NCBI GenBank assembly: GCA_963783935.1
Contig: CAWAPP010000007.1
Span: 1,201,823-1,265,822 of the forward strand
DNA: 64,000 nucleotides
Reading direction: 5' to 3'
Source of the DNA: an uncultured Actinomycetota bacterium
GTDB taxonomy: Bacteria; Actinomycetota; Actinomycetes; Streptosporangiales; Streptosporangiaceae
The translations under genes and the position numbers were made by a program. The notes below the pieces were generated by a model that worked only from the letters and a program-made list of their open reading frames with translations, made no database searches and was not told where the DNA came from. Shown piece after piece: positions 4,545-19,481 of the stretch. Positions within the stretch are counted from its first letter, which is position 1, and the number at the start of each line of letters is the position of its first letter.

Positions 4545-4860
4545 TCCAGTGCACCGCCACCACCGCTCCCTGGCGTCACGGGTGCGTTTCATTTGGTGTG
4601 ACCAATGGCAGGCGGTTCGGCGGGCCACTGTCGGCCGGGCCGAGAAGCCCGCTCTGTCCACCCGGCCTCCCCGAACCGGGCATAAACCGCATACCAGTCC
4701 CGCGCCGGATCCGACGCCCCGCCCGCAGGCCCATCAATGTCCCGGCGCGGGCGCCAGGACCCCTTCGCCGGAACAACGCTGGGCCTCGCCACCCGCCCTC
4801 GCCACCCGCCCTCGCCACCCGCCTCGCCACTCGCCCTCGCCACCTGCCTGGCCGGCCGCG
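4545..4860. repeat. intergenic repeat cluster R2
   Basis: Half copy of the CACGGGTGCGTTTC..GGTGTGAC hairpin arm (4577-4602). 13-bp tandem CTCGCCACCCGCC x~5 (4784-4848). The overlapping ORFs are Arg/Pro-rich junk. Confidence 0.7.
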
Positions 4861-4951
4861 CCGGTGATTCGGGCGGGGCTGGTGCGAGAGAAAGCTATTA
4901 CTGATCTGAACTATCAGTCTTCTAAGGAATGACAATCTAACTACCAGGGTA

Positions 4952-4980
4952 TTGACGGCGACCAAACGCATTTCTACGCT
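4952..4980 (+). promoter_or_regulatory. candidate housekeeping-sigma promoter TTGACG-N17-TACGCT
   Basis: -35 TTGACG at 4952-4957, a 17-nt spacer, then -10 TACGCT (TAnnnT) at 4975-4980. It lies in an AT-richer stretch 36 nt upstream of the ATG at 5016 and ahead of a long + strand operon. Confidence 0.4.
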
Positions 4981-5015
4981 AACGGCAACCTGCGATTTAC
5001 CGGAAAGGCTCATTC

Positions 5016-5165
5016 ATGAACGAAAAGGTCATTATCAGAACAGACACCTCAGTGGCCCCAGTCCTGCTCACCCCGGCTCTGGTCGAGAAGATGCTCGCCA
5101 GCCGCGACGCCGTACAGGTCATGAAGTTCCGTACCACCTGCACGGACTGCGTGCCTAATTACTAA
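5016..5165 (+). CDS. small 49-aa ORF (MNEKVIIRTDTSVAPVLLTPALVEKMLASRDAVQVMKFRTTCTDCVPNY), possible precursor or accessory peptide
   Basis: ATG at 5016 is preceded by GGAAAGG 7 nt upstream; stop TAA at 5163-5165. Too short for the ORF track. Lower G+C than the flanks. First cistron after the candidate promoter and just upstream of the nucleotidyltransferase gene. Confidence 0.4.
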   Translation: MNEKVIIRTDTSVAPVLLTPALVEKMLASRDAVQVMKFRTTCTDCVPNY

Positions 5166-5254
5166 GCCGTGAAGCGACGCCGTGGTGACCGGCCGGCCGA
5201 GGTGCCGGCTCGCCTCGGCGCCGCTTCGGTGTCTGCTGCCGATCGCCAGGGAGG

Positions 5255-6436
5255 GTGATGGAGCTCAGCGGTGCGAACCTGGTCGAGGCGCTCGGCACGG
5301 CGTGCGGTGAGCAGGCCGAGGAACCCGCGGAGATCGTCGGGCTCGTGCGCCGGGCCGAGCCGGGGTTCGCGGCGACGCTGTTTTCTGCCTGGCAGGCTGA
5401 GGGCATCGCGCTCAACGCGGCCTTACGCGAGGACGTGGAGTCCGCGGCCAGCCGGGTCGGGTTTTATCGCTCGGTCGCGGCTGAGCTCACCAAACAGGTG
5501 GACAGCCTGACCACGATCAAGGGGCTCGAGGTCGCTGCTCTCTACCCGGCCGGCCTCGTCAGGTACATGAATGACCTGGATTTCATCACGCCGTCAGAAG
5601 ACGACCTGTGGCGGGCGGTCGGCTGGCTGACTGACGAAGGCTGGGAAACCGACACGGCGACGTTCTCGTTCCTTGAGGGCTCGCTCCGGGTCATGGTCAG
5701 CCTGCGCAAGCAGAACGAGGACAGATTCCGGCTGCCGTACGGCATCGAGCTGGCGACCTACTACACGCTCGGAGACCAGGGCGGCATACCGCCGATCATC
5801 GAGCTGCCGGCCAGATGGCAGGTCCCGGCGGTCAAGAACTCGATCATGCTGCTTCACGAGCGCTATGAACAACCCTTCCGCGCGCGTGACCTGGTGGACG
5901 CGGCTTTGCTGCACGAGTCGATGGGCGAGCCCGAGCGCCGCGCCCTGCGTGAGGCGGTGGCCGAGCTCAATCTCGCGGTCGAATACGCCGAACTGGTCCG
6001 GCTGGTCAATCAGGCCGGGCTCGCCGACCTGGCGCCGCTGCCAGGTGGCCGGTGGGTGACCGCGCGGACGAGGGCGGTCCGGCTGACCCGCGGAGCTGGC
6101 TTCTTCGCCAAGCCGGTGACCGGGACTGGCCGGCATCTGCAGCGCCGGCTGATGATGGCCAAGCCCGGCCGGGCCGAGAAGGCGGCGTGGGAGCTCGTGC
6201 AGCGGCGGCTGCACCCGGCCACGGCGATCCGGGGCGGGCTGCTTGGCTTCGGCCTGCCGCTCGGCGGCCCCCGTTCGGAGGTGGCCAGTGCTGTTCTCCG
6301 CCGTCGGGGCGACCTGGCCTGGGTCGACACCCCGGCTGGCCGGTTCCTGCTGACCGTTGGCGATTTCGTTTCCGAGGAAGCCGTCACGGAACTTAGCGAG
6401 GGGCAAGAACCTGAGCCGGTCGCGGAGGCCAGCTAA
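5255..6436 (+). CDS. nucleotidyltransferase-fold protein (NTP_transf_5 / uncharacterised nucleotidyltransferase family-like)
   Basis: Motif TTIKGLEVAALYPAGLVRYMNDLDFITPSEDDLWRAVGWLTDEGW matches the KG..la.lY...R...DlDllv...d...a...L...G signature of this family. SD AGGGAGGG precedes GTG 5255 / ATG 5258. Confidence 0.7.
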   Translation: MMELSGANLVEALGTACGEQAEEPAEIVGLVRRAEPGFAATLFSAWQAEGIALNAALREDVESAASRVGFYRSVAAELTKQVDSLTTIKGLEVAALYPAGLVRYMNDLDFITPSEDDLWRAVGWLTDEGWETDTATFSFLEGSLRVMVSLRKQNEDRFRLPYGIELATYYTLGDQGGIPPIIELPARWQVPAVKNSIMLLHERYEQPFRARDLVDAALLHESMGEPERRALREAVAELNLAVEYAELVRLVNQAGLADLAPLPGGRWVTARTRAVRLTRGAGFFAKPVTGTGRHLQRRLMMAKPGRAEKAAWELVQRRLHPATAIRGGLLGFGLPLGGPRSEVASAVLRRRGDLAWVDTPAGRFLLTVGDFVSEEAVTELSEGQEPEPVAEAS

Positions 6437-7704
6437 TGACGGAGATTACGGCCACGGCCGGGCGCGCCGCAACGGACGCCCTGGCCAACGGCGTGCGGTA
6501 CGCGGTGCTGCACCGGCCAGGTGCCCAGGTAACCACCGTCTCGGTCTGGGTGCTGGCCAGTTCCCGGCACGAGCCCGTTCCCGGAGTCGCTCACCTGCTT
6601 GAGCATGTCGTCATGCAGGCAGTGCCGGCCGGGCACAGCCAGCGGGTCGTCGATGAGATCGAGGCGTGGGGCGGCGACGTCAACGCGATGACGACCCGCG
6701 ACCATGTCGTGCTGCACGCGAAGGTACCCACCTCGGAAGCGGGTGCGGCCTTAGCGGTGCTCGCGGCCGCGGCGGCCACGGCGGAATTCGACGATGAACT
6801 GGTTGAGGCGGAACGGCGAGTCGTGCAGGAAGAACTAAGGCTTGCCGCCGCCGATCCCACCGACATCGTGCATGACGTGTTCTTCCAGGCCGCCTACGGC
6901 GATGACCAGATGGGCTGGCCGGTCGGCGGCACGGCCCCAGGCGTCGCCCGTCTCGGAACCGCTCACCTGCGCGAGTGGTCTCGCCGGTTCGTGCGGCCAG
7001 CGACAACAGCCGTGGTCGTGTGCGGCGGCCTGAGCAGGGAAGAGGTGGCCTGCCTGCTGGAGGACGGTCCGCTCGCCGGCCTGGTTCGGGACCCGCGAGG
7101 GCGGCCGCCAGACAGTTCGCCGCCGGTAACGGCCGGGCGCCGGGACCTGCCGATCGTCAGCGACACGGCTGCTGTGGTCATCGGCGGACAGGGCTTCGCC
7201 CTGAGCGACCGCGCGATCCTCGCGGCTGAGATCGTGCTCGAGCTGATAGCCGGCGGCAACGCGTCGGTGCTGAACGAGGAGATCAGGTCGAACCTGGGGC
7301 TGTCCTACGACATCTTCGGCGGGGTGAGCGGGTACCGGGAGACCGGCACCTGGCGGGTCGCGATCTCCACCGCCCCGGAAAACCGCGACGAGGTCGTCGG
7401 CCTCGCCACCGGGCTGATAGCCGATGCGGTCAGGCGGGGCTGGACGCCTGAGCAGGTCGGCGCGGCGCGGCGCCGGGTCGCCGGGCTGGCGCAGGTCAAT
7501 GCCGAGTCCTCGCTTGAGGAGGCGTTTCAGTTCGGCGATTACGCCTATGTGGGCGATTGCGCGGGCTTCTCGTTCCCCGGCTATCTCGGTCAGCTGGCCT
7601 CCGTCGAACCCGACGAGGTGGCCGCGGCCGCCGAGTTCATGACTAACCGCCTGGTGGTGGCGACGGCCGGACCGGACGGGTCGCAGGACTTCCCAGTCGA
7701 GTGA
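6436..7704 (+). CDS. M16 (pitrilysin/insulinase) family zinc peptidase
   Basis: Inverted zinc motif HxxEH in GVAHLLEHVVMQ. 422 aa, M16 N- plus C-domain size. The start overlaps the upstream stop (TAATG at 6434-6438). Confidence 0.85.
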   Translation: MTEITATAGRAATDALANGVRYAVLHRPGAQVTTVSVWVLASSRHEPVPGVAHLLEHVVMQAVPAGHSQRVVDEIEAWGGDVNAMTTRDHVVLHAKVPTSEAGAALAVLAAAAATAEFDDELVEAERRVVQEELRLAAADPTDIVHDVFFQAAYGDDQMGWPVGGTAPGVARLGTAHLREWSRRFVRPATTAVVVCGGLSREEVACLLEDGPLAGLVRDPRGRPPDSSPPVTAGRRDLPIVSDTAAVVIGGQGFALSDRAILAAEIVLELIAGGNASVLNEEIRSNLGLSYDIFGGVSGYRETGTWRVAISTAPENRDEVVGLATGLIADAVRRGWTPEQVGAARRRVAGLAQVNAESSLEEAFQFGDYAYVGDCAGFSFPGYLGQLASVEPDEVAAAAEFMTNRLVVATAGPDGSQDFPVE

Positions 7705-7727
7705 CAACCATGGAGAGGAGGTGCCAA

Positions 7728-7784
7728 TTGGACCGTCACATCAGATCCGCTCGCCGGCCGAAGATCAAGCCGATCAAGAAGTGA
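7728..7784 (+). CDS. micro-ORF 1: (M)DRHIRSARRPKIKPIKK, 18 aa
   Basis: TTG start 6 nt after GGAGAGGAGG (7712-7721); stop TGA. An in-frame ATG at 7710 would give a 24-aa form (MERRCQL...) but has no SD. Shares the RRPx[IV]KP[IV]KK core with micro-ORFs 2 and 3. Confidence 0.55.
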   Translation: MDRHIRSARRPKIKPIKK

Positions 7785-7795
7785 AGGAGTGACCA

Positions 7796-7852
7796 GTGAA
7801 CCGTCGTCTGTACGCCGCTCGCCGGCCCACCGTCAAGCCGGTCAAGAAGTAG
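7796..7852 (+). CDS. micro-ORF 2: MNRRLYAARRPTVKPVKK, 18 aa
   Basis: GTG start 6 nt after AAGGAG (7784-7789); stop TAG. Paralogous to micro-ORF 1, with synonymous codon differences in conserved residues. Confidence 0.55.
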   Translation: MNRRLYAARRPTVKPVKK

Positions 7853-7889
7853 CCGGCTGGTTCTCACGCCAACGAAGGAGGGAGGGGAC

Positions 7890-7940
7890 ATGGACCGTCG
7901 TCGAGCCTCATTGCGCCGTCCTGTCGTGAAGAAGAAGTAG
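7890..7940 (+). CDS. micro-ORF 3: MDRRRASLRRPVVKKK, 16 aa
   Basis: ATG start just after GAAGGAGGGAGGGG (7874-7887); stop TAG. Same M[DN]RR...RRPx[IV]K..KK pattern. Confidence 0.55.
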   Translation: MDRRRASLRRPVVKKK

Positions 7941-7965
7941 TGAGCCTTCCCTCACCACGTGAAGT

Positions 7966-8917
7966 GTGAGCAAGCCGGGGTGCGGCGCGCTGGACGGCGG
8001 CGCATCGTGCCCCGGCCGCGCCACCGGAAAGGCTTGGTCGTTGGAAAGTGTCGATCCTGATCGCACGATCTTCGCGCTGATCTGTCCCGATGCGCTGGCG
8101 AGGCATCTTGGCCGGGTAATCCTCGCGCGCGTCGGCGAGGCCGGCTTCGCGCCGGTGGCCTGGCGGGTGATCTGGCACCGCCCTGAGGATCTCGACTTCT
8201 TCCATGAGCGCAACATCAGCAGTGCCTGGCAGTCATATTTGTACCGCCTAGTCGACCAGTTGTTCGCCTTCGGCCCGGCGGTGGCCCTCCTGCTGGCCGA
8301 CCAGCGCCCGGGCATGGAAGGTCACAGCCGGCTGCGGCTAGCGAAAGGCCCAAGCGACCCCGCCCGCTCGGGACCGGGAACGATCAGGGGCGACCTCGGC
8401 TCGGTCAACGGCATGCTTTCGCTGCTCCATACCGCCGACTCCGCCGCCGACTCGGCCAGGGAAAGCGCCGTTTTCACTGGCCCGGACGGTTTTACTTCCG
8501 GCGACCAGGACGACCTGCTCAACGTGCTTGAACTGCTCGAGCTTCAGCCGGCCTCGCGAAATCCGCGACTACCCGGACGTGGTAGCCGGCCTGCGAGCCA
8601 AAGCTCTCGCGGCCGCCTGGCCAGACTTGCCAAGACCGGTCCGCAAGACCGCGAGCGAGCTTCTCAGGTCAGGAACGGCGGAACTGGCCGCGCCCGCGAG
8701 CGGCGAGCGGCTCGCCTGCCTGCTTGATCAGGACCATCCGCTCACCGGGATGCTCAGGGCCAGCTTCACCCCGGCGTCCGCCGGACCCGATCCGCAGCGG
8801 GTCGCCGTGACCCTGGCGGGATTCGGCACCGGCATCGACGAGTGGGAGCGCCTGGTGCTCGCCACGTCCCGCCGCTTCTGGCCGCGCCGGGTCATCCCTA
8901 CTAAAGGACCAGCTTGA
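7966..8917 (+). pseudogene. NDK-fold protein with C-terminal extension, paralogue of 16249..17190; apparent +1 frameshift near 8540-8565
   Basis: N-terminal part (ORF 7966..8727) shows an NDK-like pattern (DRTIFALICPDAL.., GTIRGDLGSVNGMLSLLHTADSAADSA with a retained His) and then turns into Arg-rich junk. ORF 8528..8917 in the next frame continues with text alignable to the C-terminal domain of the paralogue (GIDEWERLVLATS vs DWLPLWDRIVTAAH). Joined length ~317 aa versus 313 aa. The true start may be internal (TTG 8041 or GTG 8050). Confidence 0.6.
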
Positions 8918-8954
8918 ATCTGCCAATTTTCCCCAGCAGTCGAGGAGAGCCGCC

Positions 8955-10169
8955 GTGGCGTCAGTATTCTTCCGCACCAAGCTAGGCACCACCGAGGAAC
9001 TCGCGGCCGCACCTGGCCAGCCGCTGACGGACGTGCTCCTTCGCGCGGGCATTCCGGTGAACACGGTCCTGACCTGGCGTAACGGCACCATAGTGGCCGA
9101 GGAAACTACCGTCGTGCAAGCCGGCGACGTGATCGAGGTCCGCCAGGTCAGGCATTACGACCTGGACGTGCTCCGCCGGCCGAGGCGGCAGGTGTACGGC
9201 GTGCCTGACCCCGTATACGCCAAGACGGTGCTCTTCGACACGATGGGCTCGCTTGAGCGCAAGACCGAGCAGCTTGACGCGGCCGGTTTCGTGAAATACG
9301 TCGAGGAGACGTTCGTCCAGAGCGTGCTCTCTCATGACGTCATGCGGGCGGGGGACAAGGTAGTCGTCGGCCTGTCCGGCGGCCGGGACAGCGTCGCGTA
9401 CCTGACTTTGCTCGAGCGCACCAGGGAACGGCTGCCCGACCTCAACATGACGGCCGTCACTATTACGGGGCTGCCCGACTGGGAAGAGCCGGCCACGTTC
9501 GCCGCCGCCAGGGAATCCGGCGAGCGCCTCGGCATCGAGCAGGTGATCGTTACCTCGGCCGACGTCGAGCGGACGTTCAAGCTCAAAGGCCAGTTCGTAG
9601 ACGCCATGAACGAGGTCGTGGCCGGCGAGGGCAATCACCTGACCATGGTGATCGGCCATCAGGTGCTGCGCCGGATGCTCGAAGAGGAAGCCAGATCACG
9701 AGGGGCCGGGGTCGTGGCGTTCGGCTTCAACGCCGATGACCTGGTGGCTTCCATGGTGACGTGGTTCACGAGCGGCTTCCGCATGGGCGGCATCCCGGTG
9801 CGGGAGATCGGGGACCTTCGGTACGTGTTCCCGCTGTACCGGATCACCAAGAAGGAACTGACGCTGTACCTGGAGCTGGTCGCGCCCGAGCTGAACCGGC
9901 AGGGAACACCAGGCCGGTTCACGACCGGGCCCGATGAGCGATCGATGGCTTACGCCCTCACCGATCACCTCTTTGACTTGTGGCCGGGCATCGATTACTA
10001 CTTGTTCGCGGCGTTCGCCAACATGCAGCGTTACATGTTCCCGCTCATCGAGGTGTCCTGCCGGGGCTGCGGCGGTCTTTACCTGCTGCAAGAGGGCATT
10101 CCTAACGCGCCCGATCTGTGTGACGTGTGCGATTTCTTCGCCCGGCGCGAGCTGAGCACTATCAGCTGA
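8955..10169 (+). CDS. PP-loop (N-type) ATP pyrophosphatase, TilS/TtcA/TtuA-like, with N-terminal beta-grasp-like region and C-terminal CxxC..CxxC zinc ribbon
   Basis: SGGxDS PP-loop in VVVGLSGGRDSVAYL. Central GHQ/..NADDL.. block typical of the family. N-terminus resembles ThiS/MoaD (NGTIVAEETTVVQAGDVIEV). C-terminus CRGCGG...CDVCDFF. No Cys in the catalytic core. Confidence 0.85.
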   Translation: MASVFFRTKLGTTEELAAAPGQPLTDVLLRAGIPVNTVLTWRNGTIVAEETTVVQAGDVIEVRQVRHYDLDVLRRPRRQVYGVPDPVYAKTVLFDTMGSLERKTEQLDAAGFVKYVEETFVQSVLSHDVMRAGDKVVVGLSGGRDSVAYLTLLERTRERLPDLNMTAVTITGLPDWEEPATFAAARESGERLGIEQVIVTSADVERTFKLKGQFVDAMNEVVAGEGNHLTMVIGHQVLRRMLEEEARSRGAGVVAFGFNADDLVASMVTWFTSGFRMGGIPVREIGDLRYVFPLYRITKKELTLYLELVAPELNRQGTPGRFTTGPDERSMAYALTDHLFDLWPGIDYYLFAAFANMQRYMFPLIEVSCRGCGGLYLLQEGIPNAPDLCDVCDFFARRELSTIS

Positions 10170-11944: not shown

Positions 11945-13839
11945 TGCGGCTGGCGGAGGTCGTGGCGGCCGTGCACGACGAATTCGATCTGGGCCTGGCC
12001 CTGGCTGACCTGCGCGCGGTCTGCGAGTACGACCGCTACCAGGCGTCGGCCGGGATTACCGCCGCCGCCGAGTACGTGGCCGAGCGGGCGAGGTGCGCCG
12101 GGCTGGCCGACGTCAAGGTGCTGACGTTCCCGGCCGACGGCGGGCGGCGGTGGTGGACCTATCGCGCGCCGGTGTCCTGGACGCCGCTGCGAGCCAGGCT
12201 CGCGGTCGGCGGCGACGTTCTGGTCAGCTACCCCGAGCAGCCGTACACGCTGGCGGCCTATTCGGCGCCGGTCGGGCCGGGCGGACGGTCGTTGCCGCTG
12301 GTCCGCTGGACCGCCGTGCGACAAGGCGCCGACTCGCGCGGCTCCCTGGTCGTCGCCGACGAACCGGTCGCGCTTGGCTCGGTCGCTCACTCGCTGGCGG
12401 GAGCTGGCGCCGTGGCCGTGGCCGCCGATCCCCTCGGCCGGTCACCACAGCGGGGGGCCGGCCAGGTTGGCCGGATCGAGTTGCCCGCCGGGTGCGGGCT
12501 GGCGGCCTTCAGCGTGACCGCCGGGGTGCTGGCCCGGCTCGCGGCCGAGGCTGACCGGGGTGGCGCGGCTCAGGTTGAGGTCGTGCTCGATGCCAGCGTC
12601 GCGGCGATGCCGGTTGTGACCGGGCGGCTGCGTGGTGACGCCGAAAAGGAAATCCTGCTCAGCGCTCATCTGTGTCATCCAAGACCCAGTGCCAACGACA
12701 ACGCGTCTGGTGTCGCCGCGCTGCTCGGGATCGCACGGGTGCTGGCCAGAGCGCCCGCCGGTCGCGCCCGCCCGGCCATCAGGTTCCTGTGGGGACCGGA
12801 GTTCACCGGCATCGCCGCCTACCTGCATGAGCAGGTCGGCACCGGCAAAGCTTCCGCGCCTTCGTTCGCGATCAATGTGGACATGGCCGGCCAGGATGTG
12901 GCCAGGTGCGGTGGCCCGCTGGTCATCGAGCGCGGGCCCGATGACATCCCCTCGTTCCTGCCCGCCCTCGCCTCCCGCTGTGCCGAACTGCTGCCGCCCG
13001 CCTCCCGCTCCTACAGCGGTGCGGTCGGGTGCGACCCGTGGACCTGGCGCGAGACGCCGTTCGCGGGCGGCGCCGATCACGCCCTGCTGGCCGACTCGCC
13101 GGCCAGGTGCCAGGTCGTCGGGCTCGGCCACTGGCCGGACCGCGCCAATCACAGCTCAGCCGACACCCCGAACCTGGTTGATCCGCAGGAGCTCCGGCGG
13201 ACAGCGACCATCGCTGGTGCGGCAGCGGCCGCGATCAGCGCCAGCGCTGGCGGCAATTTGGCGGATGATCTTGAGGAAGTAACCGTGAGCTGGGCGGCGA
13301 GGCACGTGCTGGCGACGTTGCCCGGCAGCCGGCCTTGGTCAGGTCGAAGACCTCAGCAGCTGCTCGATCCGCACGACGAGGCGGAAGCGGGACGGTGGCT
13401 CAGGCATCGGGCCGCGGTCGCGCTGGGCGCGATCAGGGCGCTGCCGGCCGCCGGGGTCGATGACGCCAGGGTGCGCGCCGCCCAGGCCTGGATCGGGCCA
13501 GTCATCACCGCTACCGCGGAACGGCTGCCGCCTGCGGCCGGGGCTGCTGCCGGCGCCGAGCCGCTGATCAGGTGCTGGGCCGGTCCGGCGAACTTGCGCG
13601 CGCTCGCCGAGGACGCCGCGCCCTTGGACAGGGACTGGCTAAATGAGGCCCTCGCCGTCGACCGGGGCGGCAACTACGCCCGCGCGCTGGCGCTGATGCG
13701 CGGCGTCAATGGCGAGCGCGATCAGGCCGAGGTCGCCTGGTGGGCGGCGCTGAGCAGTGAGCTTGCCATTCCGGTGGCGTTCGCGGAGACGTTCGTTGCC
13801 TTGCTTGTCCGGGCCGGATGGGTGCGAGGAGATCAGTAA
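11941..13839 (+). CDS. M28-like aminopeptidase-fold protein (DUF4910-type) with C-terminal winged-helix-like tail
   Basis: Signature LSAHLCHPRPSANDNASGVAALLGIARVL. Start chosen at ATG 11941 (MMRLAEV..), overlapping the upstream stop as ATGA. The upstream part of listed ORF 11782.. overlaps the previous gene. Confidence 0.8.
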   Translation: MMRLAEVVAAVHDEFDLGLALADLRAVCEYDRYQASAGITAAAEYVAERARCAGLADVKVLTFPADGGRRWWTYRAPVSWTPLRARLAVGGDVLVSYPEQPYTLAAYSAPVGPGGRSLPLVRWTAVRQGADSRGSLVVADEPVALGSVAHSLAGAGAVAVAADPLGRSPQRGAGQVGRIELPAGCGLAAFSVTAGVLARLAAEADRGGAAQVEVVLDASVAAMPVVTGRLRGDAEKEILLSAHLCHPRPSANDNASGVAALLGIARVLARAPAGRARPAIRFLWGPEFTGIAAYLHEQVGTGKASAPSFAINVDMAGQDVARCGGPLVIERGPDDIPSFLPALASRCAELLPPASRSYSGAVGCDPWTWRETPFAGGADHALLADSPARCQVVGLGHWPDRANHSSADTPNLVDPQELRRTATIAGAAAAAISASAGGNLADDLEEVTVSWAARHVLATLPGSRPWSGRRPQQLLDPHDEAEAGRWLRHRAAVALGAIRALPAAGVDDARVRAAQAWIGPVITATAERLPPAAGAAAGAEPLIRCWAGPANLRALAEDAAPLDRDWLNEALAVDRGGNYARALALMRGVNGERDQAEVAWWAALSSELAIPVAFAETFVALLVRAGWVRGDQ

Positions 13840-15104
13840 TGAAGATGATCGTGCTTGCCGATCGCAACCTGCGAGTGCTGTTCGCCGGGCAGACGATGAA
13901 CATGATCGGCAACACCGCCATGACCATTGTTCTTGGCATCTGGGTGAAGGACCTGACCGGATCGAGTGGTGACGCCGGCCTGATCTTCTTGCTCCTGGCG
14001 GCGGCGGCGTTTCTGGCGCCGGTGACCGGCCTCATTGTCGATCGCTTCCCGCGCCGCAGCCTGCTGGTGGTCAACGACTCCATTACTGGCCTGGCCGTCG
14101 GGTTGCTCCTGCTAGTGCACCATAGGGATCAGGTGTGGCTGATCTACGTGGTGGCGGCCGTGTACGGCGTTTCCGGGCTGATCTACCGGTCCGCTCGGGG
14201 CGGGCTGCTGCACTCGATGGTGCCCGACCAGCAGCTTGGTGAGGTCAACGGCCTGTTCAGCAGCCTGTCCCAGGGGATGAGGATCGTCGGGCCGCTCGCC
14301 GGCGCCGGGATCTACGCGGCCTGGGGCGGCGGCGTGGTAGCCGTCGCTGACATGGCTACTTTCGCGGTTTCGATCGCGTCCTACCTGGCTCTTCGTCAGT
14401 TCCGTGACCTGAAGCGAGCCGACCAGGAGCGGCTTGGCCGCACGCCGCGCGAGTTCGCGGCCGAGCTGACGGCCGGGGTGCGGCATTTGTTCGGTAACGA
14501 CGTGATCCGGCGGATGGTCATCGCCAGCACGATCGGCTTCGCCGGGGCCGGCATGATCGACGTGGCCATGTTCTCGCTGGTCGATCAGGGTCTTGGGCGC
14601 CCTACCTCCTGGATCGGGGTGCTGGCGAGCGTTCAGGGCGCTGGCAGCGTGCTGGCGGGCTTTATCGTCGGCCCCTACATGCGCCGCTTCGGTGAGTACA
14701 GCGCGGCCTGCGTGGGGTTTCTGCTGAACGGCGTCGGCCTGGCGGCGGCGAGCACGTCGGTGCTGCCCGGTGCGCTGTGCGGCTCGGCGCTGATCGGGAT
14801 CGGGCTGCCCATGGTCTTGGTCGCCGAGTTGACTGTGCTCCAGCGCCGTACTCCGGCCGACTTGCAGGGGCGGGCGATCGCGGCCTCGGAGGCGATTATC
14901 AATACCCCGTTCTCGATCGCGATCGCGGTCGGCGCGGGTGTGATCGCGACCGTCGGGTTCCGGCCGATCTACATCGGGGTGGCCGCCGGCTTCACCGTCG
15001 TCGGCCTGGCCCTGCTGCCCTACCTGAAGGTCACTAAGCCGGAGGACGCCAAGCCGGCCGACGTAGCGGACGAAGTCGCGGTGGTCGGGCAGGCGCCTGA
15101 ATGA
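13839..15104 (+). CDS. MFS transporter (EntS/efflux-like)
   Basis: About 12 hydrophobic segments. N-terminus MKMIVLADRNLRVLFAGQTMNMIGNTAM is typical of the MFS_3/EntS type. Start overlaps the upstream stop (TAATG at 13837-13841). Confidence 0.85.
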   Translation: MKMIVLADRNLRVLFAGQTMNMIGNTAMTIVLGIWVKDLTGSSGDAGLIFLLLAAAAFLAPVTGLIVDRFPRRSLLVVNDSITGLAVGLLLLVHHRDQVWLIYVVAAVYGVSGLIYRSARGGLLHSMVPDQQLGEVNGLFSSLSQGMRIVGPLAGAGIYAAWGGGVVAVADMATFAVSIASYLALRQFRDLKRADQERLGRTPREFAAELTAGVRHLFGNDVIRRMVIASTIGFAGAGMIDVAMFSLVDQGLGRPTSWIGVLASVQGAGSVLAGFIVGPYMRRFGEYSAACVGFLLNGVGLAAASTSVLPGALCGSALIGIGLPMVLVAELTVLQRRTPADLQGRAIAASEAIINTPFSIAIAVGAGVIATVGFRPIYIGVAAGFTVVGLALLPYLKVTKPEDAKPADVADEVAVVGQAPE

Positions 15105-16252
15105 GAGTGTCGGCTGACGAGTTGCTTGATCAGGTCCGGGGGCCGGTGCTCGGCCTGTGCCGGCGGCATCCTGAGCACAACCTGACCGTGATCGCGCGAG
15201 CGATTACTGACAGCTATCATGGCCTGGGGCCGGTTTGGCTCGGCCCTGCCCGCAGCCTGGTCGTGCTTGCCGTGGACGGGCTCGGGTACGAGGCTGCTGC
15301 TTCGGCGTTTCCCGCGGCCGAGCTCTGGCCGCTGACCAGCGAGTTTCCGACCACGACGGTGGCTTGCCTGATGACGTCGGTGACCGGCGTGCCGGCCGGC
15401 GAACACGGGTTCACCGGCGTCCAGTACCTGCACGCCGACGGGCACCGCGTCGTCAACTGTCACAGCGGCCAGGTCACCGGCTGGTCTGACGCCATTGCCC
15501 GGCCGACGGCCACGCCCGAATTTCCGACCGTGTTCGACCGGCTTGACGCGGTCGGCGTGCGGTCGGTCGCTCTGCCGCGTGAGCTTGCTGGTCTTCATGG
15601 AGATGTCACGAACCGGATGCTGCACGGCGCGCGGCTCAGCCCGGACGCGGCGGCCGTCCGGTCCGCTGCCCCCGCTGACCCGGTCGGTCTGGTGGAGGCC
15701 TTCGCCGGCGGGCTCGTGATCGAACCGGGCACGCTGACCTGGGCCTACCTTGATTTCGACAGCTACCTGCATCGGCACGGCTTCGATCACCGCATCCACG
15801 TAGCGGCTCGGGCTCTTGGCGACCTTGCTCAGCGGCTGCGTGATAGTGGCGTCTCGGTGCTGATCTTCAGCGATCACGGCCTGACCGCCAGTGCGCCCGC
15901 TCCTGGCACCTTGGAGACGTGGGATGCGGTTGCCGTTGAGCGCTGGTGCCGGCTGCCTCCTGGCGGGGCTGGGCGGGTCAGGTGGCTGTATCCGCATCCG
16001 GGTCTGGCCGGGGAGCTCGCCGATCGGCTAGCCGGGCAGCTCGGCGACGCCTTCGTGACTTCGCCTGACGAACTCGCCGACCTTGGCCTGGTCGCGGCCG
16101 GATCCGTCGGGCAGCGCCGGCTCGGCGAGGTCGTGCTCGTGGCCACCGGACCTGATTTCCCTGTGCCCGATCCTGGTACTTCCTACGAGCACGGCTCCAT
16201 GACCGCGGCTGAGGTGCTGGTGGCAATGGCGATCTGGTCGGCGGGGCCGTGA
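15101..16252 (+). CDS. alkaline-phosphatase superfamily protein (type I phosphodiesterase / nucleotide pyrophosphatase-like)
   Basis: LAVDGLGYEA .. SEFPTTTVACLMTSVTGVPAGEHG matches the metal-site/nucleophile Thr region of the family. ATGA overlap with the MFS stop. Confidence 0.75.
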   Translation: MRVSADELLDQVRGPVLGLCRRHPEHNLTVIARAITDSYHGLGPVWLGPARSLVVLAVDGLGYEAAASAFPAAELWPLTSEFPTTTVACLMTSVTGVPAGEHGFTGVQYLHADGHRVVNCHSGQVTGWSDAIARPTATPEFPTVFDRLDAVGVRSVALPRELAGLHGDVTNRMLHGARLSPDAAAVRSAAPADPVGLVEAFAGGLVIEPGTLTWAYLDFDSYLHRHGFDHRIHVAARALGDLAQRLRDSGVSVLIFSDHGLTASAPAPGTLETWDAVAVERWCRLPPGGAGRVRWLYPHPGLAGELADRLAGQLGDAFVTSPDELADLGLVAAGSVGQRRLGEVVLVATGPDFPVPDPGTSYEHGSMTAAEVLVAMAIWSAGP

Positions 16253-17190
16253 TCGGCGAGTCGGTGGCCGCTGTCGAGATCGAGCCTTGGGTCATTCCTG
16301 ATCAGCGCAAACTTGCGACTTACGCCGACGATCCTTACTTCTGGGAAGGCTGGGCCTCGTTCGCGCGGGCTTGCGGGGGTCAGCCAAGCGCTCGCGCCTT
16401 TGAGCGGATGACCTTTCTGATGATCAAGCCGGAGGCGATCGCCGGGCGCCGGATCGAGCTGATACTTGATTTCCTTGCTTCGCGCGGATTCTTGATCACC
16501 GGTGCCTGGCCGGTTCGGATGAGCAGGCACGCCGTCAGGGCACTCTGGCGTTATCAGATCAACGTCGTGCCGGTGGCGCACTTGCGGGCGCTTGAGCTTG
16601 GGGTTACCTCCGATGAGCTTTTCGTCGTCGGGCTGATCCACCTTGAGCCTTGGGACGGGGCGGGCAGCGCGGCCGAACTGCTGCGCTTGTGCAAGGGGAG
16701 TTCGTCGGCCCCGGCCGGCGATTCGCTGCGGGACGTGCTGGGTGGTCAGGCTCGGATGCTCAGTTTCGTGCACGCGCCGGACGAGTCGGCGGACGTGATC
16801 CGTGAACTGCCCATCTTGTGCGAGCCAGGGCAGCTCGGTCAGGTTCTGGCCAGCCTGGTGCCCTCGGCCGCATCGGCGCCCGGTCGGTCCGAGGCTGAAG
16901 CTCGGCTGGCCATGACCGCTAGGTATCAGCAAGTGCCCGAGCACGACCTCGACGTTCGCGCGACCTTCCAACGAATGCTGGCCGCGTCCGGTGGCTTGCC
17001 CCAGGTTGCGCGGGCGGCGATCCGCGCTGGGCGTACCACCTCCGAGCAGGCACTTGAGGTAGTGGCTGCGCTCGAGGTGGCCGACTGGCTGCCGTTGTGG
17101 GACCGGATCGTGACCGCTGCTCACCTCACCGATGGTCTTCGTAACGGCCGCGCGATGCTGCTGCCGCCATGTCCCCGTCCTGCCAGTTAG
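16249..17190 (+). CDS. NDK-fold protein with ~130-aa C-terminal extension
   Basis: ERMTFLMIKPEAIAGRRIELILDFLASRGF and RDVLGGQARMLSFVHAPDES mimic the NDK blocks (lIKPDav.., N..HgSDs) and keep the His. GTGA overlap with the upstream stop. Last gene of the + strand operon. Confidence 0.7.
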   Translation: MIGESVAAVEIEPWVIPDQRKLATYADDPYFWEGWASFARACGGQPSARAFERMTFLMIKPEAIAGRRIELILDFLASRGFLITGAWPVRMSRHAVRALWRYQINVVPVAHLRALELGVTSDELFVVGLIHLEPWDGAGSAAELLRLCKGSSSAPAGDSLRDVLGGQARMLSFVHAPDESADVIRELPILCEPGQLGQVLASLVPSAASAPGRSEAEARLAMTARYQQVPEHDLDVRATFQRMLAASGGLPQVARAAIRAGRTTSEQALEVVAALEVADWLPLWDRIVTAAHLTDGLRNGRAMLLPPCPRPAS

Positions 17191-17792: not shown

Positions 17793-18818
17793 CTAAGGCG
17801 TCCCGATGAACGCCATCAATTCGACCGGGGTCAGCCGGAACCTCAGCTTGGTGGCGGCGTTTCCCCGGCCGCCCTCGAGCACCGCCCGCCCGGCCGCTGT
17901 CGCCTCCTCCACGGCTGGCATCAGCATCAGCGGGAACGCGCTGCGGGCACCGGCCATTACCGAATAGTCGATCCCGCCGGCCCACAAGTGAAACCTGGTC
18001 GCGTCCCTGAGGCTGATGCTCGCCAGCCCAAGTTGCCCGTCTAGCCAGATCTCCGTCACGCTGATCAACCCGGCCGCGATCGCCACGAACTGACCGAACT
18101 CATCCGGATAATAAGCGGCAGTGCCGTGGCGCGCGGTCGTCCGCTGACAGAGTCCAACGGCGTCGGGCACGCCCGTCGCCGGGTCAGGACGCACGTACCG
18201 CATTCCGATCCGGTCCGCCTGGCGGCGGCCCTGCCGGATAAGAGCCCTGGCTTTCTGGCTGGGAATCGCCGCGATGAAGTCTTCTGACGAGCTGAAGCCG
18301 CGCAGGTCCTTGTTGTACCGGGTGTTCATGGGAATCTTCGTCAGCCCAACCTCGGCCAGTGCCGCCGAAAGCTGGGAATCGCCATCTACGTTCAGGAACG
18401 CGAACCACTTCACGCCTGCCTGGCGGGCTAGGTCGGCGAGGACCAGGCAAGCCCGTTCCACCAGGTGTGTCGTGAGATGCCCAGGCCGGGTCGGCAGCGC
18501 GGTGTCGTAGCAGTGCGCGACGTGGGTGATCAGGATCAGGTCACCTGGTTCTTTGCCGGGCAGGCCGAGCCCGGAAAGTATTCCAAGGGGATCGTCGCTG
18601 CTCTGCAGGTAAGCGGGCAGCACCGCGACGGCCGGGTCGCCGAATCGCAGGTAGAAGAAGTTCTCGGTTACCTGTAAGGGCGCTTGCTCGTAGGCGCGGA
18701 GGAAAACGTAGTCATAGAAGGCCGGCGCCCCGGCCGCCTCGGTCACAGCCGACCACTCTGCCCGGCCAATCCCGTCAATGGCGTGACCGACCAAGACGGG
18801 TCCGGCGTTCTTACTCAC
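17793..18818 (-). CDS. GNAT-fold / FemAB-like acyltransferase (Acetyltransf_6 or DUF482-like)
   Basis: 341 aa with clean composition. The N-terminal FYDYVFLRAYEQAP..FYLRF..AVAVLPAYL and C-terminal GGIDY..LEGGRGNAATKLRF pattern resembles FemAB-like/BioF2-like GNAT proteins. Assigned from memory only. Confidence 0.5.
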   Translation of the reverse strand: MSKNAGPVLVGHAIDGIGRAEWSAVTEAAGAPAFYDYVFLRAYEQAPLQVTENFFYLRFGDPAVAVLPAYLQSSDDPLGILSGLGLPGKEPGDLILITHVAHCYDTALPTRPGHLTTHLVERACLVLADLARQAGVKWFAFLNVDGDSQLSAALAEVGLTKIPMNTRYNKDLRGFSSSEDFIAAIPSQKARALIRQGRRQADRIGMRYVRPDPATGVPDAVGLCQRTTARHGTAAYYPDEFGQFVAIAAGLISVTEIWLDGQLGLASISLRDATRFHLWAGGIDYSVMAGARSAFPLMLMPAVEEATAAGRAVLEGGRGNAATKLRFRLTPVELMAFIGTP

Positions 18819-19477: not shown

Positions 19478-19481
19478 GGCG

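What the first reader, a model, noticed from the sequence alone, without database searches (positions are those of the whole stretch)
4952..17190. Twelve-cistron translationally coupled operon mixes nucleotide-handling folds, peptidases and an exporter around the micro-ORFs
From a candidate promoter (TTGACG-17-TACGCT) to 17190 everything is on the + strand, and start and stop codons overlap: TAATG 6434-6438, TGATG 10167-10171, ATGA 11941-11944, TAATG 13837-13841, ATGA 15101-15104, GTGA 16249-16252. The order is: 49-aa ORF, NTP_transf_5-like nucleotidyltransferase, M16 peptidase, three micro-ORFs, NDK-fold protein, PP-loop adenylating enzyme, SAM-MTase::PLP fusion, M28/DUF4910 peptidase, MFS exporter, AlkP-type phosphodiesterase, second NDK-fold protein. 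None of the hallmark RiPP maturases that I can recognise is present (YcaO, LanB/C/M, radical SAM CxxxCxxC, lasso B/C, ATP-grasp). Five proteins instead have nucleotide-binding or nucleotide-transfer folds. In logic, not in sequence, this recalls microcin-C-type peptide-nucleotide Trojan horses. That pathway has a short peptide, an adenylating enzyme, SAM-dependent MccD plus PLP-dependent MccE, the MFS pump MccC, peptidase/GNAT immunity functions and protease activation. A convergent GNAT/FemAB-like gene (17793-18818) lies just past the R3 repeats. The operon is bracketed by repeat clusters R2 and R3, suggesting an accessory cassette.
Basis: inference. Interest (0 to 1): 0.85.

Follow-up and report, generated by a model that had tools for sequence, protein, structure and literature searches.

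The report
Undescribed peptide-modifying gene cluster with mini-genes
This is a real, widely conserved but undescribed gene cluster that most likely tailors a small ribosomal peptide with an invariant tail, using a tRNA-thiolase-like ATP enzyme that has lost its iron-sulfur site, and it also carries tandem arrays of 15-20-codon mini-genes of unknown role.

Summary
All six start/stop overlaps are exact, every domain call is confirmed, and the candidate promoter is conserved in relatives. There are 13 cistrons, not 12, and the first NDK-like gene carries a frameshift.

The interpretation needs re-centring. The 49-aa ORF (5016-5165) is the conserved partner of the PP-loop enzyme, not the micro-ORFs. 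Its C-terminal 13-mer, [KR]FRT[TN]C[TS]DC[VL]PN-x, is invariant in about 50 actinomycete species. A recognisable variant lies immediately upstream of 34%-identical PP-loop homologues in Geobacillus and a gammaproteobacterium.

The PP-loop enzyme is closest to NcsA/TtuA. It lacks their three Fe-S cysteines, keeps a C-terminal zinc ribbon and has an N-terminal beta-grasp domain.

The conserved unit runs from 5016 to 18818. It includes the FemAB-like gene, the N-methyltransferase::PLP fusion, the M28 peptidase, the phosphodiesterase, the NTP_transf_5 protein, an NDK-like protein and a transporter.

The micro-ORFs are real. They show synonymous codon variation and form tandem arrays of up to 10. 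They track NTP_transf_5, and some clusters lack them.

Different nucleoside/nucleotide enzymes recur across clades, and one relative has a seryl-tRNA synthetase in the operon. A peptide-nucleoside product therefore stays plausible but unproven. I found no curated family and no paper. I read it as a new RiPP-like class.

The parts
4952..4980 (+). Candidate promoter: -35 TTGACG (4952-4957), 17-nt spacer, -10 TACGCT (4975-4980)
   Evidence: Coordinates. TATTGAC[CG]-N17-T(T)ACG(C)T is conserved in 11 loci within otherwise unalignable upstream DNA. A generic E. coli-type scan does not call it.
5016..5165 (+). 49-aa precursor peptide MNEKVIIRTDTSVAPVLLTPALVEKMLASRDAVQVMKFRTTCTDCVPNY: leader with an LLTP..V..M helix region, plus the invariant C-terminal 13-mer KFRTTCTDCVPNY
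   Evidence: Present in 48 of 50 full-length loci. The C-terminal motif is invariant, with synonymous codon variation across 39 distinct DNA versions. Variants lie immediately upstream of distant PP-loop homologues. No Pfam or NCBIfam family matches.
5258..6436 (+). NTP_transf_5-type nucleotidyltransferase-fold protein (ATG 5258 behind GGGAGGG; the ORF opens at GTG 5255)
   Evidence: PF14907, 34.5 bits against a cutoff of 31.2. Present in 43 of 50 loci. No PDB relative by sequence.
6436..7704 (+). M16 (insulinase/PqqF-like) metallopeptidase with HLLEH, the candidate leader peptidase
   Evidence: PF00675 plus PF05193. Present in 25 of 50 loci, those of the window-like type.
7728..7784 (+). Micro-ORF 1, (M)DRHIRSARRPKIKPIKK, TTG start, SD GGAGAGGAGG
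   Evidence: Belongs to a family of 100 distinct micro-ORFs, M[DN]R-x5-RRP[KR][VI]..K, with synonymous variation at the conserved R and P codons.
7796..7852 (+). Micro-ORF 2, (M)NRRLYAARRPTVKPVKK, GTG start, SD GAAGGAG
7890..7940 (+). Micro-ORF 3, MDRRRASLRRPVVKKK, SD GAAGGAGGGAGGGG; followed by a stable hairpin at about 7974-8017
   Evidence: Hairpin z-score is -2.6 against shuffles.
8041..8917 (+). NDK-like protein 1 with a roughly 130-aa C-terminal extension, interrupted here by a frameshift near 8537
   Evidence: PF00334, 46.7 bits. The catalytic His is retained. The frameshift shows by comparison with the intact L006 gene. The TTG 8041 start lies behind GGAAAGG.
8955..10169 (+). Signature enzyme: N-terminal beta-grasp (ThiS/SAMP-like) + PP-loop ATP pyrophosphatase (SGGRDS) + C-terminal CxxC..CxxC zinc ribbon. 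It lacks the Fe-S ligands of TtuA/NcsA.
   Evidence: 61-93% identical homologues in many actinomycetes. Closest PDB relatives are NcsA 6scy and TtuA, by sequence profile and by fold (AF2 pLDDT 88, Foldseek target-normalised TM about 0.7). The Cys triad is replaced by V/H/G.
10169..11944 (+). Fusion of an N-methyltransferase-like class I SAM MTase with a CobD/HisC-like PLP enzyme (the SKG lysine is present)
   Evidence: Pfam and NCBIfam. PDB: the MTase half resembles CypM, glycine N-MTase and CcbJ; the PLP half resembles threonine-phosphate decarboxylase 9jfb and HisC. Present in 44 of 50 loci and kept in the distant L071 and L072.
11941..13839 (+). M28/DUF4910 metallopeptidase-like protein
   Evidence: PF04389 plus PF16254. 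Present in 43 of 50 loci and in L071 and L072.
13839..15104 (+). MFS exporter (replaced by an ABC transporter in Streptomyces-type loci)
   Evidence: PF07690, 106.5 bits..
15101..16252 (+). Alkaline-phosphatase-superfamily phosphodiesterase/nucleotide pyrophosphatase-like protein
   Evidence: PF01663, 43.8 bits. Present in 44 of 50 loci and in L071 and L072.
16249..17190 (+). NDK-like protein 2 (catalytic His retained, long C-terminal extension)
   Evidence: PF00334, weak. Alignment. It is the only NDK-like protein in Streptomyces-type loci.
17793..18818 (-). FemAB-like/Acetyltransf_6 GNAT-fold protein (candidate aminoacyl-tRNA-dependent transferase), convergent here and co-directional in Streptomyces loci
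   Evidence: PF13480 plus PF04339. Present in 43 of 50 loci. It marks the right-hand end of the conserved unit.

Best explanation
The region 5016-18818 is a biosynthetic gene cluster of the RiPP type, meaning a ribosomally made peptide that is then tailored. It may instead make a small molecule carved out of such a peptide.

The substrate is the 49-aa peptide. Its invariant C-terminal tail, [KR]-F-R-T-x-x-[T/S]-D-x-[V/I]-x-[N/S]-hydrophobic-COOH, is handled by the adjacent PP-loop ATP pyrophosphatase. That enzyme is a TtuA/NcsA-like protein that has lost its [4Fe-4S] site and gained an N-terminal beta-grasp domain.

Shown:
- The peptide and the enzyme co-occur and co-diverge from actinomycetes to Bacillota and Gammaproteobacteria.
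- The fold and active-site motifs are as described above.
- The gene set is conserved as a unit.

Inferred:
- The enzyme uses ATP to adenylate a carbonyl or carboxyl oxygen, releasing PPi. Either the invariant Asp (or a backbone carbonyl) of the tail is activated for capture by a Thr or Cys side chain or an amine, or a nucleobase carbonyl is activated for capture by the peptide.
- The CobD/HisC-like PLP::N-methyltransferase fusion, the AlkP-type phosphodiesterase and the NDK-like/NTP_transf_5 pair then build or trim a phosphate- or nucleotide-bearing substituent.
- The FemAB-like enzyme adds an amino acid (an ATP-grasp ligase takes this role in the second cluster type).
- The M16 and M28 peptidases remove the leader and trim the product, and the MFS pump exports it.

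The micro-ORFs encode real 15-20-aa basic peptides that travel with the NTP_transf_5 gene. Their role is not established. They could be a second substrate set, a carrier or a cis-regulatory device.
For: 1. The PP-loop protein is 61-93% identical in more than 120 protein clusters, all 'hypothetical'. One genome per species yields 57 loci.
2. The precursor is found in 48 of 50 full loci. In the second cluster type it abuts the PP-loop gene.
3. The core is invariant at protein level with synonymous variation.
4. PP-loop homologues of 34% identity in Geobacillus and a gammaproteobacterial MAG have ..LLRFRTCATDPITSW and ..LLRFRTCCSDPITSW immediately upstream. Homologues of 54-57% identity have ..KFRTTCSDPVPNW and ..KFRTTGSDCVPNL. 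A 32% homologue has ..RFRTCCADARASK.
5. The closest solved structures are NcsA and TtuA, then TilS. The SGGxDS motif and the CCCC ribbon are kept, and the Fe-S Cys triad is lost in about 60 family clusters.
6. MT::PLP, M28 and the phosphodiesterase are each in 43-44 of 50 loci and also in the distant L071 and L072.
7. The flanks are not conserved outside 5016-18818. SARP and Crp-type regulators lie next to relatives.
8. There is precedent for PP-loop-superfamily enzymes acting on RiPP carboxylates (nitrile synthetase PesC, PMC13060819), and for kinase plus NTP-transferase tailoring pairs in RiPP clusters (PMC13381572).
Against: - No product, mass shift or transcript is known.
- An invariant core is unusual for antibiotic RiPPs. 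It fits a scaffold for a small molecule, or a small partner protein, equally well.
- No RRE/PqqD-like leader-binding domain was detected by Pfam.
- The residue attacked and the chemistry are guesses. The Cys position moves between clades, which argues against one fixed small heterocycle.
- The most distant homologues (30% identity or less; L064, L066, L070) have no FRT-type peptide nearby.
- The first NDK-like gene is frameshifted in this window.
Confidence: 0.7

Rival explanations
1. One reading: the micro-ORF peptides are the precursors of a microcin-C-like peptide-nucleotide. They would be adenylated or nucleotidylated at or near the C-terminus and exported as a Trojan horse.
For: - The micro-ORFs are genuine and under peptide-level selection.
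- They are multi-copy like precursors, with up to 10 in tandem.
- They co-occur with the NTP_transf_5 gene. My tally from the presence/absence results is 43 loci with both, 4 with neither and 2 discordant; Fisher p about 1e-4 on that tally, not corrected for phylogeny.
- Nucleotide-handling enzymes are abundant.
Against: - No ThiF/MccB-like enzyme is present.
- The C-termini vary (K, G, R, S, N), and none ends in Asn.
- PP-loop plus precursor clusters exist without micro-ORFs (L050, L057, L058, L071, L072).
- It is the 49-aa peptide, not the micro-ORFs, that tracks the PP-loop enzyme across phyla.
Confidence: 0.15
2. The micro-ORFs are cis-regulatory leader peptides: ribosome-stalling or attenuation sensors, perhaps of the product itself. 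They would control downstream genes rather than serve as substrates.
For: - In Streptomyces-type and type-2 loci a single micro-ORF with a strong SD sits at the 5' end of the NTase/transporter or ATP-grasp operon.
- It is followed by a conserved long hairpin with a pyrimidine-rich tail.
- A stable hairpin follows the last micro-ORF in the window.
Against: - Arrays of 3-10 tandem copies, each coupled to the next through KKG codons that double as an SD, are not typical of leader peptides.
- In the window they lie mid-operon, between the M16 and NDK-like genes.
- The hairpin energies are not exceptional for GC-rich DNA in two of three cases.
Confidence: 0.25
3. This is not a RiPP. The 49-aa product is a small partner or carrier protein (for example a sulfur or group donor through its Cys residues or C-terminus) for a PP-loop enzyme that modifies a free nucleoside or nucleotide. 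The product would then be a nucleoside antibiotic.
For: - All the nearest structural relatives adenylate nucleobases, and TtuA works with a small carrier whose C-terminal tail enters the active site (entry 5gha).
- The tail is invariant and sits at a fixed distance from the C-terminus.
- Nucleoside-phosphorylase-like, kinase-like, NTase and phosphodiesterase genes recur.
- A bona fide serS gene sits inside the operon of L073.
Against: - There is no C-terminal Gly-Gly as in known ubiquitin-like sulfur carriers.
- The Cys positions are not conserved between clades.
- Two peptidases and a leader-like conserved N-terminal region fit precursor processing.
Confidence: 0.12
4. This is housekeeping tRNA modification, another primary metabolic pathway, or an anti-phage defence island.
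For: Sources name the PP-loop protein 'TilS/MesJ'. The cluster holds many nucleotide enzymes.
Against: - Distribution is sporadic: 57 loci from a collection with one genome for each of 185,579 species.
- Scores are far below every NCBIfam equivalog cutoff.
- The Fe-S ligands are lost.
- An exporter, peptidases and SARP-type regulators are present.
- No PADLOC system matches.
Confidence: 0.03

Closest known systems
TtuA / NcsA (Ctu1) / TtcA [4Fe-4S]-dependent tRNA thiolases, and TilS
   Same: Same PP-loop ATP-pyrophosphatase fold and SGGxDS motif, and the same C-terminal CxxC..CxxC zinc ribbon. They are the best sequence-profile and Foldseek matches. A ubiquitin-like beta-grasp module is associated with the system: TtuB/SAMP in trans there, fused at the N-terminus here.
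   Different: The three cluster-binding cysteines are replaced (V/H/G in the window protein). There is no N-terminal zinc finger. Scores are far below the family cutoffs (30.7 against 272 bits). The gene lies next to a conserved small peptide inside a transporter- and peptidase-containing cluster rather than standing alone as a housekeeping gene.
Microcin C pathway (MccA-F)
   Same: The overall logic matches: a small ribosomal peptide, an ATP-alpha-phosphate-using enzyme, SAM- and PLP-type tailoring, an MFS pump, and peptidase/GNAT-fold proteins. The wider family has nucleoside enzymes and, in one operon, a seryl-tRNA synthetase. That fits either an aminoacyl-adenylate-mimic product or aminoacyl-tRNA use.
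   Different: The adenylating enzyme is PP-loop, not ThiF/E1. The precursor is 49 aa with Asn penultimate, not a heptapeptide ending in Asn. No homology to any Mcc protein was found.
Asparagine-synthetase-like PP-loop-superfamily enzymes of RiPP pathways (lasso cyclases; nitrile synthetase PesC, PMC13060819)
   Same: Both are ATP-dependent adenylating enzymes of the same superfamily acting on a carboxylate of a ribosomal peptide. They give precedent for the proposed chemistry.
   Different: This is a different branch (TtuA/NcsA-like). Pfam finds no Asn_synthase domain in the window protein. It also has the beta-grasp and zinc-ribbon additions.
Kinase + 'uncharacterised NTP transferase' tailoring pairs of paeninodin-type lasso and lpp RiPP clusters (PMC13381572)
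   Same: A phosphotransfer enzyme is paired with a nucleotidyltransferase-fold protein in a peptide cluster.
   Different: The phosphotransfer protein here is NDK-like (or dTMP-kinase-like in type 2), not HprK-like. No lasso machinery is present. I did not verify whether that NTP transferase belongs to PF14907.
Daptide tailoring (aminotransferase + N-methyltransferase), and CobD of the cobalamin aminopropanol-phosphate branch
   Same: The MTase half gives its best specific NCBIfam hits to the daptide MTase and to N-methyltransferases. The PLP half gives its best hits to threonine-phosphate decarboxylase CobD and to HisC, both of which take phosphorylated substrates.
   Different: All scores are well below cutoffs (59.5 against 175; 95.7 against 290). 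The two activities are fused. No daptide MpaB or MpaD homologues are present, and the precursor does not end in Thr.

Membership tests
RiPP biosynthetic gene cluster (generic definition) | A genetically encoded short precursor with a conserved recognition region and a modified core | tested here: met
   The 49-aa ORF has a conserved LLTP..V..M leader region and an invariant C-terminal 13-mer, under protein-level selection.
RiPP biosynthetic gene cluster (generic definition) | Modifying enzyme(s) co-localised and co-inherited with the precursor | tested here: met
   The PP-loop gene occurs with the precursor in 48 of 50 full loci and across three phyla.
RiPP biosynthetic gene cluster (generic definition) | Peptidase(s) and an exporter in the cluster | tested here: met
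   M16, M28 and MFS. Streptomyces-type loci have an ABC transporter instead.
RiPP biosynthetic gene cluster (generic definition) | A post-translationally modified peptide product is observed | not testable with these tools
   Needs expression and mass spectrometry.
TtuA/NcsA/TtcA tRNA thiolases | PP-loop motif SGGxDS | tested here: met
   SGGRDS; S141, G142, G143, R144 and S146 are invariant and D145 nearly so.
TtuA/NcsA/TtcA tRNA thiolases | Three cysteines ligating the catalytic [4Fe-4S] cluster | tested here: not met
   The aligned positions are V, H and G in the window protein, and non-Cys in about 60 family representatives.
TtuA/NcsA/TtcA tRNA thiolases | Reaches the curated family score | tested here: not met
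   TtcA 30.7 against 272 bits; NcsA 28.4 against 500; TilS 23.3 against 93.6.
TtuA/NcsA/TtcA tRNA thiolases | The substrate is a tRNA nucleobase | not testable with these tools
   Genomic context argues against a housekeeping tRNA role, but the activity is untested.
Microcin C-type peptide-nucleotide systems | A MccB-type ThiF/E1-like adenylyltransferase | tested here: not met
   No ThiF-family hit in any cluster protein.
Microcin C-type peptide-nucleotide systems | The precursor ends in Asn | tested here: not met
   The precursor ends in Y, F, L, M or W with Asn penultimate. The micro-ORFs end in K, G, R, S or N, and none in the window ends in Asn.
Microcin C-type peptide-nucleotide systems | The product is a peptidyl-nucleotide | not testable with these tools
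   Only circumstantial: nucleotide and nucleoside enzymes recur, and serS lies in one related operon.
Daptides | Daptide methyltransferase equivalog, plus MpaB/C/D and a Thr-terminated precursor | tested here: not met
   NF041820 scores 59.5 bits against a cutoff of 175. The precursor does not end in Thr.
Asparagine-synthetase-like RiPP enzymes (lasso cyclase, nitrile synthetase) | Asn_synthase (PF00733) domain | tested here: not met
   No PF00733 hit for the window protein. One distant homologue carries a weak precomputed hit.
Known anti-phage defence systems (PADLOC) | Any system-specific protein model | tested here: not met
   Only a generic methyltransferase-domain hit.

The most novel reading that the evidence does not exclude
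The family makes a new class of ribosomal peptide-nucleoside (or nucleotide) conjugates. An Fe-S-less TtuA-like enzyme would adenylate a carbonyl and join the invariant FRT..D tail to a nucleobase or nucleotide, giving an aminoacyl-adenylate-like inhibitor of a tRNA synthetase. That would explain the serS gene embedded in one related operon. The tandem mini-genes would supply basic carrier or partner peptides that the NTP_transf_5 enzyme nucleotidylates. This would be a two-peptide Trojan-horse system with no described counterpart.
Probability: 0.2. Interest if true: 0.92.

Novelty: new variant of a known kind. Interest (0 to 1): 0.78.

Why it matters
If the reading is right, three things follow.

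- A new class-defining enzyme for ribosomal peptide natural products. It is a tRNA-thiolase-like PP-loop protein that has dropped its iron-sulfur cluster. It pairs with a precursor motif conserved from Streptomyces to Geobacillus and Gammaproteobacteria.
- A minimal test system of two adjacent genes, peptide plus enzyme, which is easy to express and assay.
- Arrays of up to ten translationally coupled 15-20-codon genes whose function is open. The gene calls I saw did not list them.

The invariant core points to one conserved molecular target. The recurring nucleoside/nucleotide enzymes, with a tRNA synthetase gene in a sister operon, make a translation-directed antibiotic a concrete possibility that can be tested.

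Tried and rejected
- Fused AlphaFold model. I built 54 paired PP-loop-linker-precursor sequences to look for a docking signal.
- Metagenome scan. A scan with a diverse superfamily alignment failed because no stretch was conserved enough. Distant contexts came instead from 12 exact-protein look-ups.
- Rfam. A search over 3500-19500 found nothing credible (one chance hit at E = 0.21). The micro-ORF region is therefore not a known RNA element.
- Curated families. The precursor and the micro-ORFs match no Pfam or NCBIfam family.
- Defence systems. PADLOC gave no match.
- Literature. Searches for the core strings and for combinations of the enzyme families found no description. The decRiPPter paper does not mention these enzymes.
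- Repeats as cassette boundaries. R2/R3 are rejected as boundaries because R3 is a genome-wide dispersed repeat.
- Thiolation. A TtuA-like thiolation mechanism is rejected for the PP-loop enzyme because the Fe-S ligands are absent.
- Lanthipeptide- or azoline-type ring. A fixed ring involving one particular Cys is disfavoured because the Cys position shifts between clades.
- GlyRS near a distant homologue. The glycyl-tRNA synthetase in L065 is a full-scoring GlyRS on the opposite strand, so I did not count it as cluster evidence.

Full report
**1. The observation**

The window is about 67% G+C, and its closest relatives are Streptosporangiaceae-like metagenome-assembled genomes. From 4952 to 17190 the large, high-GC3 ORFs all lie on the + strand.

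Pfam confirms each domain assignment: NTP_transf_5, M16 plus M16_C, NDK twice, a PP-loop protein, a methyltransferase fused to a class I/II aminotransferase fold, M28/DUF4910, MFS, a type I phosphodiesterase, and an Acetyltransf_6/FemAB-like protein on the opposite strand at 17793-18818. None reaches an NCBIfam equivalog cutoff. No YcaO, LanB/C/M, radical SAM, lasso or ATP-grasp domain is present in the window's cluster.

Three corrections apply.
- The list gives 13 cistrons, not 12.
- The first NDK-like gene is split by a frameshift near 8537, whereas the closest relative has one intact ORF.
- The 'R3' repeat downstream of the operon recurs at 1374-2024, 32761-32885, 42408-43372 and 57942-58222 in this window and is absent from related loci. 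It is a dispersed genomic repeat, not a cassette boundary.

The proposed promoter fails a generic sigma-70 scan. However, TATTGAC[CG]-17-TACG(C)T is the only conserved block in the otherwise unalignable upstream DNA of 11 related loci. That supports it by phylogenetic footprint.

**2. The gene set is conserved as a unit**

The PP-loop protein has homologues of 61-93% identity in more than 120 protein clusters. They come from Pseudonocardiaceae, Solwaraspora, Nocardia, Streptosporangium, Sphaerisporangium, Nonomuraea, Streptomyces and Streptacidiphilus, and every named one is 'hypothetical' or 'TilS/MesJ/ThiS'. A scan of one genome per species returned 57 loci.

I ran tblastn with each window protein against these loci. 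Fifty loci had at least 19 kb of sequence. The components were found as follows:

| Component | Loci with it (of 50) |
|---|---|
| 49-aa peptide | 48 |
| NTP_transf_5 protein | 43 |
| MTase::PLP fusion | 44 |
| M28 peptidase | 43 |
| Phosphodiesterase | 44 |
| FemAB-like protein | 43 |

In loci whose PP-loop protein is at least 66% identical to the window's, nearly all also have one of the two NDK-like proteins and an MFS or ABC transporter.

Flanking genes are not shared except with the nearest relative. The conserved unit is therefore 5016-18818. Neighbours in relatives include SARP-type and Crp-type regulators, as expected for a specialised-metabolite cluster.

Three layouts occur.
- **Window type.** Precursor, NTase, M16, micro-ORFs, NDK-like 1, one or two FemAB-like genes, PP-loop, MT::PLP, M28, MFS, phosphodiesterase.
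- **Streptomyces type.** One strand carries micro-ORF, NTase and ABC transporter. The other carries NDK-like 2, Metallophos, precursor, phosphodiesterase, PP-loop, MT::PLP, M28 and FemAB-like.
- **Second paralogous type.** The PP-loop protein is 54-61% identical (40% by tblastn in L062). The precursor lies immediately upstream of the PP-loop gene. An L-amino-acid-ligase-type ATP-grasp and a dTMP-kinase-like protein take the places of FemAB and NDK.

Several genomes carry both the first and the second paralogous type.

**3. The real precursor**

Its last 13 residues are [KR]FRT[TN]C[TS]DC[VL]PN plus one hydrophobic residue in every actinomycete locus of the two main types. Across 39 distinct DNA versions, the Arg, Thr, Val and Pro codons vary synonymously while the amino acids do not. 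The leader carries a conserved ..P-V-L-L-T-P-x-x-V-x-x-M.. region.

I used a profile search of 1.8 billion representatives to reach more distant enzymes, and then looked up their contigs. The same element is encoded next to the PP-loop gene, immediately upstream in all but L072, where it lies about 150 bp away on the opposite strand:

| Source | C-terminal tail | PP-loop identity |
|---|---|---|
| L071 | ..KFRTTCSDPVPNW | 54% to the window protein |
| L072 | ..KFRTTGSDCVPNL | 57% to the window protein |
| L069 | ..RFRTCCADARASK | 32% to the window protein |
| Geobacillus (L067/L068) | ..LLRFRTCATDPITSW | 34% to the window protein |
| Gammaproteobacterial MAG (L073) | ..LLRFRTCCSDPITSW | 37% to the window protein; 46% to the Geobacillus enzyme |

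The common denominator is F-R-T-x-x-[T/S/A]-D followed by exactly five residues to the C-terminus. At least one Cys is always present, but at positions that differ between clades. Peptide sequence therefore tracks enzyme phylogeny across three phyla, which is the strongest evidence for an enzyme-substrate (or enzyme-partner) pair.

Neither Pfam nor NCBIfam has a model for the peptide. None of its motif strings occurs in the searchable literature.

**4. The signature enzyme**

The profile of the family hits NcsA (6scy, E = 2e-16) and TtuA in the PDB. Its N-terminal 65 residues weakly hit SAMP2 and ThiS-like beta-grasp proteins. The AlphaFold model is confident (pLDDT 88, pTM 0.85). Foldseek ranks NcsA and TtuA first (target-normalised TM about 0.7), then TilS, then GMP and NAD synthetases and LarE.

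The SGGxDS motif and the four zinc-ribbon cysteines are invariant. The three cysteines that hold the catalytic [4Fe-4S] cluster of NcsA/TtuA align with Val, His and Gly here, and with non-Cys residues in about 60 family representatives. The His is widely conserved.

Membership in the thiolase family is thus refuted on a defining feature. The ATP-pyrophosphatase (adenylating) chemistry of the fold is the reasonable inference. Enzymes of this superfamily activate nucleobase carbonyls, carboxylates and even amide carbonyls (N-acetyl-sugar amidotransferase, PMC10607449). Relatives already act on RiPP carboxylates (PesC, PMC13060819).

**5. The tailoring set**

*MT::PLP fusion.* Its MTase half is closest to N-methyltransferases: CypM, glycine N-MTase, CcbJ and the daptide MTase. 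Its PLP half is closest to threonine-phosphate decarboxylase and then histidinol-phosphate aminotransferase. Both of those handle phosphorylated amines. The Schiff-base lysine context (SKG) is present.

*Conserved module.* The fusion, the M28/DUF4910 protein and the AlkP-type phosphodiesterase are kept even in L071 and L072, which lack the NTase and NDK-like genes. They form a second conserved module.

*NDK-like proteins.* Both keep the catalytic histidine.

*Nucleoside and nucleotide enzymes.* Different folds appear in different clades:
- NDK-like, NTP_transf_5, NPP-type phosphodiesterase and YfcE-type Metallophos in type 1
- dTMP-kinase-like in type 2
- uridine/purine-nucleoside-phosphorylase-like PNP_UDP_1 and NTP_transf_2 in the Geobacillus and gammaproteobacterial clusters

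*tRNA synthetase.* In the gammaproteobacterial operon a full-scoring serS gene sits between the PP-loop and PNP genes, overlapping the latter. That fits either self-resistance to a synthetase inhibitor or supply of an aminoacyl-tRNA.

*Peptide-bond step.* The FemAB-like fold in types 1 and 2 and the amino-acid-ligase fold in type 2 point to one peptide-bond-forming step. This rests on established knowledge of those families, not on a test here.

It is circumstantial.

**6. The micro-ORFs**

They are real. I found 100 distinct versions of M-[D/N]-R-x5-R-R-P-[K/R]-[V/I]-x-[K/R]..K-K-G, 15-24 aa long (most 15-19) and 46% Lys plus Arg, almost all with a Shine-Dalgarno-like sequence upstream. The conserved Arg and Pro codons vary synonymously.

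They form tandem arrays of 1 to 10. In Sphaerisporangium album ten copies follow at 62-nt spacing, and the AAG-AAG-GGN codons of the C-terminal KKG act as the ribosome-binding site of the next copy.

Streptomyces-type and type-2 loci carry a second subfamily (MSVAFK[KQ]V[TK]VRPKPGK; M[KR]SLKKVRVV.KP.K...). It usually sits as one copy at the head of the NTase or ATP-grasp operon. In Streptomyces-type loci it is followed by a conserved long hairpin.

Their presence tracks NTP_transf_5. My tally from the presence/absence results is 43 loci with both, four with neither and two discordant. Fisher p is about 1e-4 on that tally, without phylogenetic correction. Clusters without them exist (L050, L057, L058, L071, L072).

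They are therefore a conserved accessory, not the hub. I cannot decide between a second substrate set for the NTase, a carrier or immunity peptide, and a translational sensor.

**7. Alternatives tested**

- No Rfam element lies in the region.
- No PADLOC defence model matches.
- No curated family covers the small peptides.
- The literature searches found no description of the cluster, of the enzyme combination or of the motifs. The library does not cover most subscription journals, so this is absence of evidence only.

**8. Verdict**

The finding is real and better than ordinary. It is a conserved, unannotated RiPP-type cluster. The most likely class-defining pair is an FRT..D-tailed precursor and an Fe-S-less, beta-grasp-fused TtuA/NcsA-like PP-loop enzyme.

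The assignment of the micro-ORFs as the centre of the system, the microcin C analogy as membership, and the repeat-bracketed cassette are not supported.

The chemistry (which atom is adenylated, what is attached) is inferred, not shown. A two-gene co-expression with mass spectrometry would settle it.

Noticed in passing
window 8515-8560 (frames 7966-8727 and 8528-8917): The first NDK-like gene is interrupted by a frameshift around 8537 (..VLELLEL | RPREIRDYPDVV..). The orthologue in L006 is one intact ORF. It could be an assembly indel or a genuine pseudogene.
   Followed up: partly
window 1374-2024, 17213-17640, 32761-32885, 42408-43372, 57942-58222: Clusters of a palindromic unit of about 13-24 nt (core CATCGATGGCCCA / TGGGCCATCGATG) are dispersed in intergenic regions across the whole window. 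They are absent from related loci, so this looks like a REP/MITE-like genomic repeat family of this organism.
   Followed up: partly
window 4783-4848: A short tandem repeat with a 13-nt period (GCCTCGCCACCCGCC..) lies just upstream of the conserved promoter. Its function is unknown.
   Followed up: no
window 2000-4950: A lower-G+C stretch (0.62-0.64) precedes the cluster. Its 452-aa ORF (2702-4060, minus strand) has only a faint Peptidase_M78 match and no counterpart in related loci.
   Followed up: no
L027 6113-6730; L028 6206-6760; L026 6351-6830: Arrays of 8-10 micro-ORFs at about 62-nt spacing. The last codons of each ORF (AAG AAG GGN) form the Shine-Dalgarno sequence of the next, giving a chain of translationally coupled mini-genes.
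   Followed up: yes
L001 about 6330-6445 (minus strand), and the same place in 12 other Streptomyces-type loci: A conserved long hairpin (GCGATCAGGATCC...GGGTCCTGATCGC) with a pyrimidine-rich tail lies directly after the single micro-ORF and before the NTase-ABC transporter genes. It is terminator- or attenuator-like, with some compensatory changes visible by eye.
   Followed up: partly
L073 3479-4759: A full-scoring seryl-tRNA synthetase gene sits inside the operon of a distant family member, between the PP-loop gene and a nucleoside-phosphorylase-like gene. It could be self-resistance or aminoacyl-tRNA supply.
   Followed up: partly
L071 347-6305 and 10308-12162; L003 1-4610: Some family members add a tryptophan halogenase, flavin reductase, large radical SAM protein, PhyH hydroxylase and tryptophan 2,3-dioxygenase. 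In L071 the precursor ends in Trp. This hints that the variable last residue can itself be tailored.
   Followed up: no
L006/L056, L008/L053, L011/L058, L014/L057: Single genomes (MAGs) carry two paralogous clusters with different cores (..TTCTDC.. and ..TNCSDC..) and different accessory enzymes.
   Followed up: partly
L013 about 540-2081 (minus strand): A second copy of the conserved promoter motif lies on the opposite strand, upstream of the region holding a micro-ORF and the NTase gene. The same promoter type may therefore be reused within a cluster.
   Followed up: no
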